Both the position numbers and the translations under genes were made by a program. The notes beneath the pieces were generated by a model. It ran no database searches and was not told the DNA's origin. It worked only from the letters and a program-made list of their open reading frames with translations. A DNA stretch of 45,259 bases from IMG/VR virus record IMGVR_UViG_2734482549_000013. One strand, given 5' to 3'. Positions 10,565 through 16,308 of this stretch are shown here, in pieces; within the stretch, counting starts at the first letter, position 1; each line of letters opens with the position of its first letter. Source of the stretch: a virus (taxonomy: Duplodnaviria > Heunggongvirae > Uroviricota > Caudoviricetes).

Positions 10565-11326
10565 ATGGAGACTGTTTTTGACGCACTGAAAGCAATGGGA
10601 AAAGCCACATCCATAGAACTTGCTGCGCGACTTGATATCAGTCGTGAAGAAGTGCTGAACGAACTATGGGAACTGAAAAAAGCTGGTTTCGTTGATAAAA
10701 GCGCGTACACCTGGCGTGTGGCTGATAACAACGTTCAGCAGGAACAGCCAATGCAGGCAGAACTGCCGGAAGAAACCACCACGGCAACTGTAGTGAAAAT
10801 CTCAGAGTGCGATTTAACCGCGACGATTGAACAACGCGGACCACAAACGGCGGATGAACTGGCTACGCTGTTCGGTACAACATCCCGCAAAGTTGCTTCA
10901 ACGCTGGCAATGGCAATCAGCAAAGGACGCCTGATTCGCGTAAACCAGAACAGTAAATTTCGTTACTGCATGCCGGGCGATAATTTACCAGCAGAGCCGA
11001 AAGCTGCATCGGTAGCGGAAACTGATGGTAAAGCCTTTCCTCAGCCAGCCGGTGTTGCGTTACCAGTACAGGAAGCGGCAACACAGGAAGATATTAAAAC
11101 AGAAACTGTGGCGGACATTGTGCAGTCGCTGCCATCGTTTACTGAAACGCAAGCGGATGACCTAGTTTTACCATCGCTGCATATGGCAAACCGCGAACTG
11201 CGTCGGGCGAAAAATCATGTCCAGAAGTGGGAGCGAGTCTGCGCCGCGCTGCGGGAGCTGAACAAGCACCGGGATATTGTCCGACAGATTGTCGATTCCT
11301 CCAGTCGTATTGTGTCGGAAAAGTGA
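10565..11326 (+). CDS. ydaW: Full-length YdaW-like protein, 253 aa from [10 protein letters not shown]
   Basis: GGGAGGAAA Shine-Dalgarno upstream of ATG at 10565; N-terminal region recalled as YdaW-like (recalled as truncated in the K-12 Rac remnant). Confidence 0.6.
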
Positions 11327-11341
11327 TTGCCGGAGGCGCTT

Positions 11342-11758
11342 ATGGCAAAAGTTTTTACACAGGAAGAGCGTGAAAAAATTAAGGAGCAGGTTGTTGAGTT
11401 GGTACGCCAGAGTGGGCGCGAGACGTTAAGGCAACTGGAGGCCAAGACAGGTGCGACAAGATATCTGATGAGCATTCTTGCCAGAGAGTTGGTTGCCAGT
11501 GGCGATGTATACAACTCTGGCTATGGGTTATTCCCGTCTGAACAGGCTCGTAAGGATTGGAAAAACGCCCGCAAAAAACTATCCAGGGCAAAGGTGAAAA
11601 AAACGGTTGTGGTTGATCCTGACCTTATCTGGTCATTACCAGACGGAGAAATACGCCGCTATGACAGGCGTCAGAACATAATCTGTCGCGAGTGCCGGAA
11701 GAGTGAAGTTATGAAACGTGTACTGGCATTTTATCAAGGAAATCTTCGGTATTTATAG
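11342..11758 (+). CDS. Hypothetical basic phage protein, 138 aa from MAKVFTQEER
   Basis: ORF with GGAGG Shine-Dalgarno at 11333-11337; no family recognised by eye. Confidence 0.5.
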   Translation: MAKVFTQEEREKIKEQVVELVRQSGRETLRQLEAKTGATRYLMSILARELVASGDVYNSGYGLFPSEQARKDWKNARKKLSRAKVKKTVVVDPDLIWSLPDGEIRRYDRRQNIICRECRKSEVMKRVLAFYQGNLRYL

Positions 11759-11896
11759 ACGTTACTAGATCAAAGAGCATTAGTTCATATGTAAATTGAC
11801 ATTTTTCTGGCACAGGGGAGAGCTAGCGTGGTTGTCCGCTTTGTGCCAATAGCGGACATTGCTGGCTCATGGTATGTTAGTTTAAGGAGGCAGGTT

Positions 11897-12919
11897 ATGC
11901 CCTGTATTTCGCTGTGGTATAATAGTTGCGCAATTGATACAAGGGAGCGTTACATCGTGAAAATTGTTTTCGAGGTTAATGGAAAGAAAGTTCCACTAAA
12001 ATCTTTAAAATACATAAGCAAAAAAGATCAACTCGAAGTAATGAAAAACTGGTTCTTTGAAAACTTTGAAGATCCGGCAAATGCTTGTCCGTATGAAAGT
12101 AGAGAAGGTGGCTATGCTTACATATATGGCGGGCCGTATGATGCGAGCGAAGAACTACAATCCATCTTCGGTCAATATGTTAAATCTGAGTATATTGAGG
12201 AATTAGTAGATGAATTACAAACACAATGTTTTGACTGGTCTGGAAACTCAAATAATATAGATGATTGGTACGATGATGATATCTACGACGCTGTAACGTC
12301 TTCCGGTAATCCGTATTTAAAATTCATTGATAATATCGATAAAATAAAAAAACTTGCAAAAGATAAAACTGAACAACAGCAAAAAAACCACTTGCTTAGT
12401 TTGCTCTACACGAATGTTATTACAGCTTTGGAAACGCTTTATGTTGAGCTATTCATTAATTCTATAGAGAAAGATGATGTCTACATAGCCAATTGTATAG
12501 AAAAAGGTAAGACTGAATTTAAAGTAAGCAAAGATATTGCTGCGTTGCCTTTCAAGGGTGAACCCATCGAGAAAATTAGGGGAGAGCTAATCAGGTCAAT
12601 CAAGGAACACTTGATCAGTGCAAGCTGGCATAGCACTAAAAAGGTAATCGACCGCTATGAAGCTACATTCGATATAAAAGTACAAAAAGACTGTCCGATA
12701 GAAGCTATTGAATTGGCAACCCTCAATCGAAATCACTTAGTGCATCGTGGTGGAAAGGATAAAGAAGGGAACCTCGTAGTGATTACAGACCAGGATCTTG
12801 AAACGCTGATTGAAAATGCATCGAACCTGGCAATTATGCTCTACAACAGTTTAAATGTAGCAACGAATAAAACCACCATTTTGCAACCAGATGACAAACC
12901 GTTCATTCATGAATTTTAA
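11897..12919 (+). CDS. Cargo gene A, 340 aa, AT-rich; C-terminal HEPN-like RNxxxH motif (LNRNHLVHRGG); candidate defense/abortive-infection effector
   Basis: AAGGAGG Shine-Dalgarno at 11884-11890, ATG at 11897; codon usage visibly AT-rich compared with flanking phage genes; motif at 12728-12745. Confidence 0.7.
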   Translation: MPCISLWYNSCAIDTRERYIVKIVFEVNGKKVPLKSLKYISKKDQLEVMKNWFFENFEDPANACPYESREGGYAYIYGGPYDASEELQSIFGQYVKSEYIEELVDELQTQCFDWSGNSNNIDDWYDDDIYDAVTSSGNPYLKFIDNIDKIKKLAKDKTEQQQKNHLLSLLYTNVITALETLYVELFINSIEKDDVYIANCIEKGKTEFKVSKDIAALPFKGEPIEKIRGELIRSIKEHLISASWHSTKKVIDRYEATFDIKVQKDCPIEAIELATLNRNHLVHRGGKDKEGNLVVITDQDLETLIENASNLAIMLYNSLNVATNKTTILQPDDKPFIHEF

Positions 12920-12934
12920 TAGCGCAGGTCATAC

Positions 12935-13936
12935 ATGGATATTCGCACACGAAAGACAAAATTTTTAGAGTCGTTAGATTCAACTGAAGTGATACGCAAA
13001 GCAGTAAGTCTCGCTATAGATTGCATTATTGATAATCATAATAGTAATGAAGATACCCCCTTAGTTATTACCAGCTATGATGATCTCTGTAGAATCCAGG
13101 TGCTAAATTATGTACAGGAGTTTTGCGAAGCTGCATTCCCTGATATGGATGAATATTACTTTAGTCCTAACATACTTCGCATCAACGGCAAGACTAGTGA
13201 AGAAGCTTGTATTAACTTAATTAAACTCTTAAGAAGTACAAAAGGCATGCTATTCTGGTCCGATGCCCCATCGTGGTTCGCTAGCCTCCCCGACGGATTA
13301 TTCCATGTTGTTAACATTGATCAAAAAATCGTTACTCGCGGCCTTAATAAGAAAAACTCTAAGCCGACAATAATCAATAAAGATTACAGTGTAGATACAC
13401 TACTATCAGAGCTATTTTTGAATGGCGCACACATGGAGCAACCCAACGTACACAACGTTTCTGAGGGAAACATGAAGTTCTATGATGAATGCCATGCTGG
13501 ATTAATCAGACCAATACCCGCTCCAATAGGCGCGTCATACGATGAAGAGATCACAATTAATTCTCCAGATTGGCAAAAGCTCGCGTGTGTAGCTTTACGC
13601 CGCTATCAGTCGAAGGAATGTCATGACGGAATGCAATGGGATACAACCGATCATGGTTGGACTGATGTAATCGCGTATCCATTCGTCGAAGAAATACAAT
13701 CAATGGATAATAGTGGTTATCGACAATGTTTAGTTGGGCTGGTCACAATAAACAATTCAAATGCAAATTCTCCGTACCTATCTACCGTTTGGATACATCC
13801 ATTTTATCGCAGGAGAGGGTTATTAAGTAAGTTATGGCCAAAATTACAAGAGTTATATGGAAGTAACTTCGAAATTGAGCGACCTAATGAAAATATGAAA
13901 GCATTTCTGAAAAGTGCGAAACACGCAGATTACTAA
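12935..13936 (+). CDS. Cargo gene B, 333 aa, AT-rich; C-terminal GNAT-like acetyltransferase motif (VWIHPFYRRRGLLSKL)
   Basis: Starts 15 nt after gene A stop (operon-like); motif A-like V-x-P-x-Y-R-x-x-G at about 13786-13826. Confidence 0.7.
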   Translation: MDIRTRKTKFLESLDSTEVIRKAVSLAIDCIIDNHNSNEDTPLVITSYDDLCRIQVLNYVQEFCEAAFPDMDEYYFSPNILRINGKTSEEACINLIKLLRSTKGMLFWSDAPSWFASLPDGLFHVVNIDQKIVTRGLNKKNSKPTIINKDYSVDTLLSELFLNGAHMEQPNVHNVSEGNMKFYDECHAGLIRPIPAPIGASYDEEITINSPDWQKLACVALRRYQSKECHDGMQWDTTDHGWTDVIAYPFVEEIQSMDNSGYRQCLVGLVTINNSNANSPYLSTVWIHPFYRRRGLLSKLWPKLQELYGSNFEIERPNENMKAFLKSAKHADY

Positions 13937-14113
13937 TTTATGAATCAGTCTGTGGAGTTAGGGTTGGTGTGAACAAGTAGGGTAAGAGCCTCAACGTGAT
14001 GCTATGCCGACCTGCTCCCTGAGAATTCACACAGAAGGCTGCTAGCAATGTCTGCAGATCGCTCAAAGCGGACTAAAATGTTGGCTTGTTTCTGACTTAG
14101 AGCATTTAAGGAA

Positions 14114-14338
14114 GTGCTGGTGGTGACTGGTTGTTGTGTTCCATTTCTACAGAATAAAATCACAGAAACTATACCCAATAGTTGTATTGAATCACTGACG
14201 AGACAGCCTCATATTTATCAGGACTGGTGTGCGTCTAATACAGGGGGTTGTCGTGCTGGTTCTCAAATGTGCGCTGGCTATTGCGGCTGTAATGGCAATT
14301 TATTGTCTTGCTGTTGTTCTTATGGAGCGGCTTTCTGA
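14114..14338 (+). CDS. Possible small Cys-rich peptide (11 Cys in 74 aa; GTG start); may be non-coding
   Basis: Track ORF; CRAGSQMCAGYCGCNGNLLSCCCSYG; weak start context. Confidence 0.2.
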   Translation: MLVVTGCCVPFLQNKITETIPNSCIESLTRQPHIYQDWCASNTGGCRAGSQMCAGYCGCNGNLLSCCCSYGAAF

Positions 14339-14497
14339 TTGATTACATACTGGCTAGAAAAAAGGTGTTACCTTGGTTTATCTTTGTCCGGCAAGGTGCG
14401 CTCATTAATCTTAAGTAAATTTATTGCTCAAGTATTCAGATTACTTCTTATGGTTGAAGTCTCCTGTCAATGTAGAACCAATATATTTACAAAAATG

Positions 14498-14545
14498 AGA
14501 CCCGTCGGGGATAGCCCTGCCGGGTCTGACTGTTAAAGCATTTTT
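14498..14545. terminator. Hairpin AGACCCG...CGGGTCT with flanking T/A runs between the cargo genes and the convergent yeaR-like gene
   Basis: Inverted repeat 14498-14504 / 14521-14527 read directly; T-run on the minus strand just beyond the stem. Confidence 0.45.
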
Positions 14546-14556
14546 AATATGATCAT

Positions 14557-14895
14557 CTATTTTTTGGTGCTATAGACTTTTTCGCCCGAAAAGTCTGGAG
14601 CGACCCAAAAGTTAATATTAAACTGAGCATCATCGCTTAGTTCAACACGGTGCCAGTATTGTGGTGGGCTTGTTGCAAAAGCGCCAGCATTAATGACTAC
14701 TTTTATCTCCGGTTCAGTAGCATTCTCATCAGTAAAACCATAATATGTTACAGTGCCTTCCATTACGCACAACTGCCCAAAAACACCTGCTGCTGTATTA
14801 TGATGTGTTAATAACGCTGAAGGTACGTTCTCTTTTGTGAAGAACGGAGTTGAGCGTTTGATTACCCAATCTTTAGGAATTCTCTTGTGTGTCAT
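14557..14895 (-). CDS. YeaR-like DUF1971 protein, 112 aa from MTHKRIPKDW
   Basis: Conserved pattern RSTPFF ... VMEG.V.Y.G..DE...EP ... AG.FA..PP..WH ... DD..FNI.F.VAP matches recalled E. coli YeaR. Confidence 0.65.
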   Translation of the reverse strand: MTHKRIPKDWVIKRSTPFFTKENVPSALLTHHNTAAGVFGQLCVMEGTVTYYGFTDENATEPEIKVVINAGAFATSPPQYWHRVELSDDAQFNINFWVAPDFSGEKVYSTKK

Positions 14896-15708
14896 AACCA
14901 CCTCCTCCAAAACATGCATTAAAAATGCATCTTTTGGAGGGTTATGTCAAGCTGTTATGAAACACATAATTGATATGTTGATTAGAGGAGAAGATAGAAT
15001 AAATATGGTTGTTTTTCGTATAACTATTTGTTTTACTTTTAGTTTATGCATTCTGTGTGTTAGGAATAAGTTATTAAAGTTTAATCAAAAAATCTCGATG
15101 TAGTCCACATAGATTACTGTTACTGAACCTTATTGTGTGTATTAGTTGTGTTCTGAAATTTCAGCTTAATTATTTATGATGTATTTTTTAACGATAAATA
15201 TTTTCCCAGGATACCTTTACTGTGTATATAAATAAATTATATACGCATAAATAATGTAAAGGCGTCCTTTTAGATATATCTTATCAAATGTTAATGACTT
15301 GAGTGGGAAATATGATTCCAGCAACTTATCATGTGGCTACTTTATAAAAATAATGCCCATATAAAACAACAAGCGAAAAGGATTACGGATAAAAAAGGAG
15401 CGAGATGTGCGAACTTGTTATTTTCCATGTTTAACCACCTTAAATAATTGATGATGACGGGATGATTGCATCTGTAATGCTTTTATTGAAATGTTATGAT
15501 AAAAAAGAACTTTTGCATAACATTAAAATGTAATTTATCTAATCGTTTTTAATAATAAGTGTCGTATTTCTATCCTTGTACCAGCTATTTGATATGTAGT
15601 GTTTGTTCATGCTATGTGGGGCTTTACACCATAGCCAGTTTATTTATACTTTATTCGTCAGCCTGAACAACTGGCATCTGCTGCGCTGCGCCATCGAGAG
15701 ATTGAGAA

Positions 15709-16308
15709 ATGGCGCATATACAACTGGTCAAACAAACCTCTTCTGGTTTACTTCTCCCGGCGACGCCGGAGAGTTGCGATTTTCTGCATCAAATCAAAAT
15801 AGGTGAGTGGATACACGCAGACTTTAAGCGTGTGCGTAACTACGCATTCCACAAGCGTTTTTTCAAACTCCTGCAACTGGGATTCGATTACTGGACTCCG
15901 GTCGGTGGGGCGATCACGCCTCGCGAACGAGAACTGCTGTCTGGTTTCGTTGATTACCTGTGCGAATCAGTTGGTCGGGAACACACGCCAGCCCTGAGTG
16001 ATGCCGCAGAGCAATACCTTAACACCGTTGCGACTCGTAGAACCCGGGATACGGCGTTGCTAAAGTCGTTTGAGGCTTTCCGCGAGTGGGTAACCATTCA
16101 GGCCGGATTTTACACCGAGCATATTTATCCGGACGGTAGCCGTGGGCGTCGGGCAAAATCCATCGCTTTTGCGAATATGGACGAAGTCGAGTTTCAGCAG
16201 GTTTATAAATCTGTACTGAATGTGCTGTGGAACTGGATTCTGTTCCGTAAATTCTCCTCTCAGGAGGAAGTTGAAAATGTGGCCGCACAACTACTGGAGT
16301 TTGCGTAA
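15709..16308 (+). CDS. nin-region phage protein, 199 aa (DUF1367-like by recollection)
   Basis: ORF immediately upstream of and overlapping the ybcO-like gene (ATGA overlap at 16305-16310). Confidence 0.5.
   Translation: MAHIQLVKQTSSGLLLPATPESCDFLHQIKIGEWIHADFKRVRNYAFHKRFFKLLQLGFDYWTPVGGAITPRERELLSGFVDYLCESVGREHTPALSDAAEQYLNTVATRRTRDTALLKSFEAFREWVTIQAGFYTEHIYPDGSRGRRAKSIAFANMDEVEFQQVYKSVLNVLWNWILFRKFSSQEEVENVAAQLLEFA

What the first reader, a model, noticed from the sequence alone, without database searches (positions are those of the whole stretch)
12728..12745. HEPN-like RNxxxH motif in cargo gene A
The motif (codons for R-N-H-L-V-H, within ATLNRNHLVHRGG) matches the Rx4-6H catalytic signature of HEPN ribonucleases found in Abi proteins, Cas13 and toxin-antitoxin toxins. 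It sits in the C-terminal third of an otherwise unrecognisable protein.
Basis: partly seen in the sequence, partly recalled or inferred. Interest (0 to 1): 0.6.

Follow-up and report, generated by a model that had tools for sequence, protein, structure and literature searches.

The report
Prophage-borne HEPN RNase, likely antiphage
The motif is the genuine, conserved active-site signature of a HEPN ribonuclease domain in a two-domain protein carried on a small mobile cassette in an E. coli prophage; the protein is most likely an untested single-protein anti-phage suicide nuclease of a family already predicted by computation.

Summary

The protein is not otherwise unrecognisable. Its N-terminus is the HEPN/RES N-terminal domain 1 (PF18870). 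A 2026 preprint uses that domain to define aRES, experimentally validated stand-alone antiphage proteins.

Gene A starts at GTG 11957 and is 320 aa. It has no conserved partner across 80 species and lies in the accessory slot of a Rac-type prophage. With GNAT-like gene B it forms a 2.24-kb cassette that also occurs in another prophage type, on an IncF plasmid, and (A-B pair only, 86% DNA identity) in Aeromonas.

Best reading: a phage-triggered abortive-infection RNase. It is a new member of a known, computationally predicted kind with no experimental data.

Extra observation: about 75% of family members end in an acidic or Pro-Phe tail resembling the SSB C-terminus.

The parts
11957..12919 (+). 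Gene A coding sequence (320 aa, GTG start; identical to RefSeq WP_014639476.1, annotated 'hypothetical protein')
   Evidence: PGAP calls this start. Homologues from other genera start here. Upstream of it, Serratia has a 1-nt insertion and Aeromonas lacks the ATG at 11897, so the 340- and 363-aa extensions are not coding.
12008..12265 (+). HEPN/RES N-terminal domain 1 (aa 18-103), with invariant W32 F33 P40 P45 E50 G51 G52 G58 G59 P60 F71 W94; presumed sensor or regulatory domain
   Evidence: PF18870 scores 22.2 bits in the window protein (cut-off 27.4), and 32 of 43 homologues match it. A profile of this domain finds 1640 clusters at 50% identity. The most conserved stretch (aa 41-60) has the lowest pLDDT within the domain, 62-66.
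12308..12880 (+). HEPN domain of the RiboL-PSP type (aa 118-308): helices 119-134, 140-170, an insert at 174-238, then helices 248-263 and 278-308
12728..12745 (+). R258-N-H-L-V-H263, the Rx4H catalytic motif (the finding); the invariant R264 follows at 12746-12748
12431..12433 (+). Invariant E159 in the second core helix, a candidate for the conserved acidic residue of HEPN active sites
   Evidence: Invariant in alignment A1. Lies in helix 140-170. The role of a helix-2 acidic residue is described in PMC3710099.
12626..12631 (+). Invariant W224-H225 in the insert between core helices 2 and 3; role unknown (possibly substrate binding or an auxiliary active-site residue)
12887..12916 (+). Disordered C-terminal tail ending ...PFIHEF, with Phe as the last residue
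   Evidence: pLDDT <50 for aa 310-320. 81 of 108 family members >=270 aa end in F, usually after acidic residues.
11915..11923 (+). Candidate extended -10 promoter element TGGTATAAT, 34 nt upstream of the start codon
   Evidence: Read from the sequence. Conserved as TGGTACAAT in Serratia and TGATACAAT in Aeromonas. Not experimentally tested. Missed by the consensus scan, which requires a -35 match.
11941..11947 (+). Shine-Dalgarno-like AAGGGAG, 9 nt before GTG 11957
12935..13936 (+). Gene B (333 aa, WP_000354966.1), 16 nt downstream of gene A: N-terminal alpha/beta domain plus C-terminal GNAT acetyltransferase fold. It is a cassette companion, not a conserved partner of the family.
11833..14073 (.). 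The mobile A+B cassette (about 2.24 kb, G+C 0.34-0.43 versus about 0.50 in the flanks)
   Evidence: Homology breakpoints against an IncF plasmid and Serratia grimesii. Composition.
11821..11866 (.). Left imperfect inverted repeat of the cassette (core GTCCGCTTTG...GACATTGCT)
14041..14086 (.). Right imperfect inverted repeat of the cassette (46 nt, 72% complementary to the left arm)

Best explanation
Gene A (window 11957-12919) encodes a stand-alone, two-domain abortive-infection-type nuclease. Its C-terminal domain is a HEPN ribonuclease of the RiboL-PSP type, and R258, N259 and H263 (the flagged motif) together with E159 form the active site. As in other HEPN enzymes, two subunits probably pair their Rx4H motifs to form the catalytic site (inferred). 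Its N-terminal domain, HEPN/RES-NTD1, is the part shared with the validated aRES defence proteins. That domain most likely keeps the nuclease off until a phage-derived cue appears (inferred). Once switched on, the enzyme would cut cellular RNA, most likely tRNA anticodon loops or mRNA by analogy with HepS, DARNA, ApeA and PrrC. That would stop translation and block phage multiplication at the cost of the infected cell. The gene is expressed from its own promoter on a 2.24-kb cassette that moves between prophages and plasmids, so the prophage gains superinfection protection for its host. Shown here: the motif, its invariance, the HEPN fold, the domain architecture, the lack of a conserved partner and the mobility. 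Inferred: RNase activity, dimerisation, the phage trigger and the defence phenotype.
For: Motif and invariance.
Pfam: PF18735 matches 21 of 43 homologues and PF18870 matches 32 of 43. P0101 scores 36.1 bits, P0112 29.0 and P0060 28.5 against a cut-off of 28.4.
Stand-alone gene: no shared neighbour family in 80 species loci.
Defence and mobile contexts: immediate neighbours include pAgo, SIR2, GajA, restriction/modification enzymes, AbiEii, PD-T7-5, LmuA, SoFic, integrases and a Tn3 transposase. Homologues occur on 27 plasmids, 15 of them conjugative.
Precedents: aRES proteins are defined by PF18870 plus a RES domain; they are stand-alone, phage-triggered and cause growth arrest (bioRxiv 10.64898/2026.01.28.702374). 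HepS is a single-protein HEPN Abi system in the same accessory slot of the lambdoid prophage Gifsy-1 (PMC13043305).
Location: between the replication genes/DUF977 and the NinB-like genes of a Rac-type prophage.
Own promoter: a conserved extended -10 element.
Confidence: 0.6

Rival explanations
1. Genes A and B form a two-gene toxin-antitoxin-like module. A is the HEPN toxin and the GNAT protein B neutralises or regulates it, for example by acetylating it, in analogy to MNT antitoxins that AMPylate HepT toxins.
Against: A occurs without B in 77 of 80 species loci, including homologues at 67-76% identity, and in Aeromonas prophages. B occurs without A in Shewanella, Marinomonas, Serratia, Neptunicella and a metagenomic defence island. 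Neither family shows any conserved partner.
Confidence: 0.12
2. The nuclease serves the phage itself, for example in host RNA shut-off or RNA processing during lytic growth, or in plasmid/prophage maintenance by post-segregational killing, rather than in defence against other phages.
For: The gene sits co-oriented in the early-right region of a lambdoid prophage. The same cassette occurs on an IncF plasmid next to relB.
Against: Only 2 of 50,697 deposited phage genomes hold a homologue. Most family members lie in bacterial chromosomes of many phyla without phage genes nearby. The cassette has its own promoter-like element and a foreign G+C content, which is typical of morons.
Confidence: 0.12
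3. The HEPN domain is non-catalytic, acting as a ligand- or RNA-binding module as in HEPN domains fused to nucleotidyltransferases or in MtlR.
Against: HEPN families that lost catalysis have lost the Rx4-6H motif (PMC3710099). Here R, H, the polar residue after R and the helix-2 glutamate are conserved or invariant down to 26% identity.
Confidence: 0.05
4. The motif is a chance match in an unrelated helical protein.
For: Rx4H is frequent, about 0.45 per 320 aa, and gene A has a second non-conserved copy. Foldseek found nothing significant.
Confidence: 0.02

Closest known systems
RiboL-PSP-HEPN family (Pfam PF18735; Anantharaman et al. 2013, PMC3710099)
   Same: The C-terminal domain of homologues matches this model, in some above the curated cut-off. 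The Rx4H motif is conserved. The family is described as distantly related to AbiD/AbiF.
   Different: The family was named for fusions to the endoribonuclease L-PSP domain and for operons with ParB; neither is present here. The window protein itself scores below detection. No member has been tested experimentally.
aRES antiphage proteins (HEPN/RES-NTD1 + RES domain; bioRxiv 10.64898/2026.01.28.702374)
   Same: They share the same N-terminal domain (PF18870) and the same stand-alone two-domain layout. They are also found in defence islands of Enterobacteriaceae. aRES is phage-triggered and causes growth arrest.
   Different: The effector is a RES NADase that makes ADPR-1''-phosphate, not a HEPN RNase. 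Gene A has no RES domain.
HepS of Salmonella prophage Gifsy-1 (PMC13043305)
   Same: It is a single-protein HEPN abortive-infection system in the accessory slot after the replication genes of a lambdoid prophage. It has no partner gene, is inactive by default and cleaves tRNA anticodon loops.
   Different: HepS is a solo HEPN protein under 250 aa, with its motif at R100-H105 and no N-terminal domain. No sequence similarity to solved structures was detected. Its trigger, the tail-tip protein J, is not known to apply here.
AbiD/AbiF (Abi_2, PF07751) with the abiF RNA antitoxin (PMC12373285)
   Same: It is a prophage-borne single HEPN protein acting in abortive infection. The 2013 classification places the RiboL-PSP HEPN family near it.
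   Different: There is no Abi_2 Pfam match, no abiF or other Rfam RNA motif in 11300-15800 and no tandem repeats.
DARNA (PD-T7-3) and ApeA
   Same: Both are single-protein HEPN defence nucleases that join a HEPN domain to a non-catalytic sensing domain and cleave tRNA on activation.
   Different: The domain order and the sensor domains are different, and there is no PADLOC match.

Membership tests
HEPN superfamily | Four-helix up-down bundle, commonly with an insert between helices 2 and 3 | tested here: met
   [not shown]
HEPN superfamily | Rx4-6H motif at the end of helix 3, with a polar residue (N/D/H) after the R | tested here: met
   R258-N259...H263 lies at the C-terminal end of helix 248-263. 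R and H are invariant, and position 259 is N or H in all 43 sequences. The criterion is taken from PMC3710099.
HEPN superfamily | Conserved acidic residue in helix 2 (often within Ex3[KR]) | tested here: met
   E159 is invariant and lies in helix 140-170. The residue four positions later is not K or R, so only the acidic residue is present.
HEPN superfamily | Metal-independent RNase activity from a composite active site formed by dimerisation | not testable with these tools
   This needs biochemistry, or a multimer model or structure.
Pfam PF18735 HEPN_RiboL-PSP | Score above the curated gathering cut-off (28.4 bits) | tested here: inconclusive
   The window protein gives no hit at E<=1. Homologues P0101 (36.1 bits), P0112 (29.0) and P0060 (28.5; 58% identical to the window protein) pass the cut-off. 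21 of 43 aligned homologues match at E<=1e-3. Membership therefore rests on transitive homology.
Pfam PF18870 HEPN/RES-NTD1 | Score above the cut-off (27.4 bits) and the conserved WF..N[FY]EDP...PYESREGGY.[YW]I[YW]GGPYDA core | tested here: met
   The window protein's own score is 22.2 bits, below the cut-off. Its N-terminal domain nonetheless aligns at 38-84% identity, with 14 invariant columns, to domains that pass the cut-off (P0112, P0115, P0116, P0117). 32 of 43 homologues match.
aRES defence system | PF18870 N-terminal domain plus a RES NADase domain in one stand-alone protein | tested here: not met
   The N-terminal domain is present, but there is no RES domain and the C-terminal domain is HEPN. 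Gene A shares the architecture but is not a member.
HepS | Solo HEPN protein under 250 aa without additional domains | tested here: not met
   Gene A is 320 aa and has an extra N-terminal domain. The authors excluded such proteins from the family. The A1 profile finds no related PDB sequence.
AbiD/AbiF (Abi_2) type III-like system | Abi_2 domain and an adjacent abiF-motif RNA | tested here: not met
   No PF07751 hit. No Rfam family at E<=0.1 in 11300-15800. No tandem repeats.
HEPN-MNT (HepT/MntA) toxin-antitoxin | An adjacent minimal nucleotidyltransferase antitoxin gene | tested here: not met
   The neighbours are a DUF977 gene and the GNAT-like gene B. No nucleotidyltransferase family appears among the reported Pfam families of neighbours of 80 homologues.
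Known or candidate defence systems in PADLOC-DB v2 (including PD-T4-2, PD-T4-5, PD-T7-3 and ApeA) | A significant match to a system model | tested here: not met
   The window protein has only noise-level hits (E about 0.01). Among the 43 homologues there are only weak hits to HEPN-containing models (RTasHEPN in 4 members at E 5e-4, Cas13-ApeA in 1).

The most novel reading that the evidence does not exclude
HEPN/RES-NTD1 and the C-terminal acidic or Pro-Phe tail together form a general, effector-independent infection switch. The tail resembles the SSB C-terminal tip (DDDIPF). In this reading it docks into the glycine-rich conserved pocket of the N-terminal domain, in cis or between subunits, and holds the effector off. 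The effector can be HEPN, RES, PIN or a membrane-type module. A phage protein that grabs SSB-like tails, or that competes for the pocket, would release it. The family would then be a decoy-type sensor of phage replication or recombination proteins. The mechanism of aRES activation would be explained at the same time.
Probability: 0.12. Interest if true: 0.7.

Novelty: new member of a known kind. Interest (0 to 1): 0.4.

Why it matters
About 4% of complete E. coli genomes carry this exact gene as a 'hypothetical protein', including UTI89 and the type strain ATCC 11775. No defence-finding model lists it. If it is an antiphage RNase, three things follow. It adds a HEPN counterpart to the newly described aRES system. 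It shows that one N-terminal domain is reused with interchangeable killing domains. It also offers a tractable E. coli model for asking what that domain senses. The cassette's presence on IncF resistance plasmids and in prophages matters for phage therapy and for how defence genes spread.

Tried and rejected
- The afdb50 structure library was not available.
- A profile of the family against all PDB sequences gave only spurious hits.
- PADLOC, NCBIfam and PHROGs gave no functional name.
- A DNA search of deposited phage genomes matched only the flank. The protein search found 2 distant hits.
- The search for a conserved partner gene among 80 species loci found none.
- The search for an RNA antitoxin found no Rfam family and no tandem repeats.
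- The consensus promoter/terminator scan found nothing above the shuffle expectation. The extended -10 element was found by cross-species alignment instead.
- Accession numbers of both proteins are not mentioned in any searchable paper.
- The idea that B is the obligate partner of A was considered and made unlikely by their independent distributions.
- The longer 340- and 363-aa ORF versions were rejected as coding.

Full report
**1. The observation**

Window 12728-12745 (+) reads CGA AAT CAC TTA GTG CAT. This encodes R-N-H-L-V-H inside ATLNRNHLVHRGG. The motif alone is weak evidence:
- Rx4H occurs 17 times in 12,026 aa of this window's non-overlapping ORFs, about 0.45 per 320 aa.
- Gene A contains a second, non-conserved copy (RSIKEH).
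- 10.7% of shuffles of gene A contain an Rx4H.

**2. The gene**

The longest ORF is 11828-12919 (363 aa) and PHROG 17908 models a 340-aa form. RefSeq instead calls a 320-aa protein from GTG 11957 (WP_014639476.1, 'hypothetical protein'). Cross-species alignment settles the start in favour of GTG 11957:
- Between ATG 11897 and GTG 11957, Serratia has a 1-nt insertion.
- Aeromonas lacks the ATG at 11897.
- The GTG and everything after it are conserved.

The same alignment shows a conserved extended -10 element, TGGTATAAT, at 11915-11923. An AAGGGAG ribosome-binding site follows at 11941-11947. These are read from the sequence and are untested.

**3. What the protein is**

A search of 5.8 billion proteins found 121 relatives. 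In an alignment of 43 of them (26-87% identity), the following are invariant:
- R258, H263 and R264
- E159
- W224-H225
- a block in the N-terminal domain

Position 259 is always N or H. The 2013 HEPN survey lists these as the polar residues typical after the catalytic R (PMC3710099).

The window protein itself gives only a sub-threshold Pfam hit, to PF18870 HEPN_RES_NTD1 (22.2 bits against a cut-off of 27.4). Its homologues match more clearly:

| Pfam family | Homologues matching (of 43) | Notes |
|---|---|---|
| PF18870 HEPN_RES_NTD1 | 32 | |
| PF18735 HEPN_RiboL-PSP | 21 | best E 7.1e-11; three checked members score above the curated cut-off |

The AlphaFold2 model has mean pLDDT 85.7. It shows:
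- a small N-terminal domain;
- a helical bundle with helices 119-134 and 140-170, an insert at 174-238, then helices 248-263 and 278-308.

The motif sits at the C-terminal end of helix 248-263, before a hairpin. This is the position described for HEPN domains, 'end of helix-3 and beginning of the loop to helix-4'. The invariant glutamate lies in helix 2.

- YutE and TT1696
- HepT-type toxins 8xdj, 7ae2 and 5yep
- sacsin HEPN
- Csx1 and Csm6

LsoA, AbiA and Las1 followed at lower Z.

Foldseek against the PDB was uninformative, and a sequence profile found no solved relative.

**4. Surroundings and distribution**

The window is a Rac-type lambdoid prophage inserted at ttcA, carrying intR, xisR, ralR, recET, kilR, sieB and ydaT/U. 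Gene A sits after the replication genes and DUF977, and before the NinB-like DUF1367 gene. The HepS paper describes this slot as where lambdoid prophages carry accessory genes.

G+C falls from about 0.50 to 0.34-0.43 over genes A and B.

Gene A is present at >=99% identity in 208 of 5426 complete E. coli genomes, including UTI89 and ATCC 11775, and is always annotated hypothetical.

The A+B segment recurs in several backgrounds:

| Background | Extent or identity |
|---|---|
| dicB/ydfABC-type prophage (ATCC 11775) | homology extends beyond the cassette, 11332-14357 |
| IncF resistance plasmid, between relB and IS26 | 11833-14073, 99.9% |
| Serratia grimesii | 11834-14010 plus 14009-14073 |
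| Aeromonas caviae, next to a relaxase gene | 86% DNA identity, 11898-13978 |

The homology breakpoints on the IncF plasmid and in Serratia fall at the outer ends of a 46-nt imperfect inverted repeat, 11821-11866 and 14041-14086. No target-site duplication is evident.

**5. Is there a partner?**

The family occurs in 234 of 185,579 species-representative genomes, spread over many phyla.

Among the 80 best loci, no neighbouring protein family is shared beyond close relatives.

Gene B follows gene A only in the E. coli and Serratia loci of that set, and in the Aeromonas clade at 87% A identity. Homologues at 67-76% identity lack B, as does an Aeromonas prophage homologue at 56%.

B-family genes stand without A in Shewanella, Marinomonas, a Serratia ICE, Neptunicella and a metagenomic defence island.

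No Rfam RNA family and no tandem repeats lie in the window's cassette region. Gene A therefore behaves as a self-sufficient single gene.

Its immediate neighbours elsewhere are heterogeneous. They include pAgo (two loci), SIR2 (two loci), GajA, restriction and modification enzymes, AbiEii, PD-T7-5, LmuA, SoFic, three integrases and a Tn3 transposase. This is suggestive of defence islands and mobile elements, but I did not test it statistically.

Twenty-seven plasmids carry the N-terminal domain, 15 of them conjugative. NCBI names one homologue 'HEPN-associated N-terminal domain-containing protein'.

**6. How it most likely works**

The 2013 survey defined HEPN/RES-NTD1 as an N-terminal domain fused to HEPN, RES and other effector domains. 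It proposed that such N-terminal domains of Abi-like proteins sense phage components while HEPN executes RNA cleavage.

A 2026 preprint defines aRES proteins by PF18870 plus a RES domain. It shows that they are stand-alone, protect E. coli against several phages, deplete NAD+ only after infection and cause growth arrest. Gene A carries the same N-terminal domain with a HEPN effector instead.

A profile of the domain finds 1640 clusters at 50% identity. Members I examined carry different effectors or partner domains:
- HEPN
- PIN_8
- GmrSD_N
- KAP NTPase
- DUF3644
- an unrecognised module with a hydrophobic tail

This supports a portable regulatory domain with exchangeable effectors.

HepS, DARNA and ApeA are recent precedents for single-protein HEPN defence nucleases. 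They are inactive at rest and cleave tRNA once triggered.

I therefore commit to this reading: a phage-triggered, HEPN-mediated abortive-infection RNase, expressed constitutively from a mobile cassette, with confidence about 0.6.

| Component of the claim | My confidence |
|---|---|
| HEPN identity | about 0.9 |
| RNase catalysis | about 0.75 |
| Defence role | about 0.6 |
| N-terminal domain as sensor | about 0.4 |

Dimerisation, substrate and trigger are all inferred.

**7. An unexpected feature**

Eighty-one of 108 family members of at least 270 aa end with phenylalanine as the very last residue. Sixty-four of those have two or more acidic residues in the five positions before it (…ESEF, …EADF, …FDADLPF; the window protein ends …PFIHEF).

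Proteins that share only the N-terminal domain also end in …[LP]F. Among the top domain hits of at least 240 aa, the counts are:

| Group | End in F |
|---|---|
| HEPN-type | 31 of 56 |
| Non-HEPN-type | 25 of 49 |
| Neighbouring ORFs (background) | 16 of 437 (3.7%) |

The sequences are related to each other, so the p-values overstate independence.

The tail is disordered in the model (pLDDT <50). The most conserved loop of the N-terminal domain (aa 41-60) has the lowest confidence within that domain. The tail resembles the conserved SSB C-terminal tip DDDIPF (PMC5872125).

A tail-in-pocket autoinhibition or decoy mechanism is a speculative but testable reading.

**8. Comparison and novelty**

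The protein works like the single-protein HEPN Abi systems and is architecturally the HEPN counterpart of aRES. It is a member of the HEPN superfamily (features met) and, by transitive homology, of the RiboL-PSP-HEPN and HEPN/RES-NTD1 Pfam families.

It is not a member of any of the following:

| Family or system | Why not |
|---|---|
| aRES | no RES domain |
| HepS | extra domain; 320 aa |
| AbiD/F | no Abi_2 match; no abiF RNA |
| HEPN-MNT | no nucleotidyltransferase gene nearby |
| Any PADLOC system | no significant model match |

The architecture was predicted computationally in 2013. What is new is only this unannotated, widespread E. coli representative, its cassette, and the tail feature. 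Verdict: real feature, interpretation supported, new member of a known kind, moderate interest.

Noticed in passing
window 12887-12916 (gene A C-terminus); homologues P0001-P0120 and P0187-P0332: About 75% of the family (81 of 108 members >=270 aa) end in Phe as the last residue, usually after acidic residues or Pro. Proteins sharing only the N-terminal domain also end in ...[LP]F (25 of 49), against 3.7% of neighbouring ORFs. The tail resembles the SSB C-terminal tip DDDIPF.
   Followed up: partly
window 11821-11866 and 14041-14086: The A+B cassette is bounded by 46-nt imperfect inverted repeats (72% complementary; core GTCCGCTTTG / CAAAGCGGAC). Homology breakpoints on an IncF plasmid and in Serratia fall at their outer ends. 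No target-site duplication was seen, and the mobilisation mechanism is unknown.
   Followed up: partly
[not shown]
   Followed up: partly
window 11897-11956: The 340-aa form (PHROG 17908, and the largest protein cluster P0001) and the 363-aa ORF over-extend the gene. The ATG at 11897 has a strong AAGGAGG site in E. coli. However, the stretch is frameshifted in Serratia, lacks the ATG in Aeromonas, and contains the conserved extended -10 element.
   Followed up: yes
P0187-P0332: HEPN/RES-NTD1 is far more widespread than the HEPN-fused family: 1640 clusters at 50% identity. Some proteins carry two copies. A large group has an unrecognised C-terminal module of about 170 aa with a 'GHN.PPE' motif and a hydrophobic tail.
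   Followed up: partly
window 14251-14337 (+): An unannotated small ORF, GTG-started after a GGGGG run, encodes a hydrophobic 28-aa peptide (MLVLKCALAIAAVMAIYCLAVVLMERLS). It is followed by terminator-like hairpins at 14277-14331. It could be a type I toxin-like peptide. There is no Rfam match nearby.
   Followed up: no
window 14557-14919 (-) and 14900-15600: A DUF1971-family gene lies on the opposite strand. It is followed by a very AT-rich stretch of about 700 nt (G+C 0.27-0.31) without annotated genes, before the NinB-like gene. This looks like another accessory insertion in the same slot.
   Followed up: no
L009 (JAIHTM010000277.1, 'Collinsella sp.' MAG contig, 3262 nt): This contig carries the cassette's genes A and B at 100% protein identity to the E. 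coli copy. It is probably a mis-binned or contaminating Enterobacteriaceae contig in an Actinomycetota MAG.
   Followed up: no
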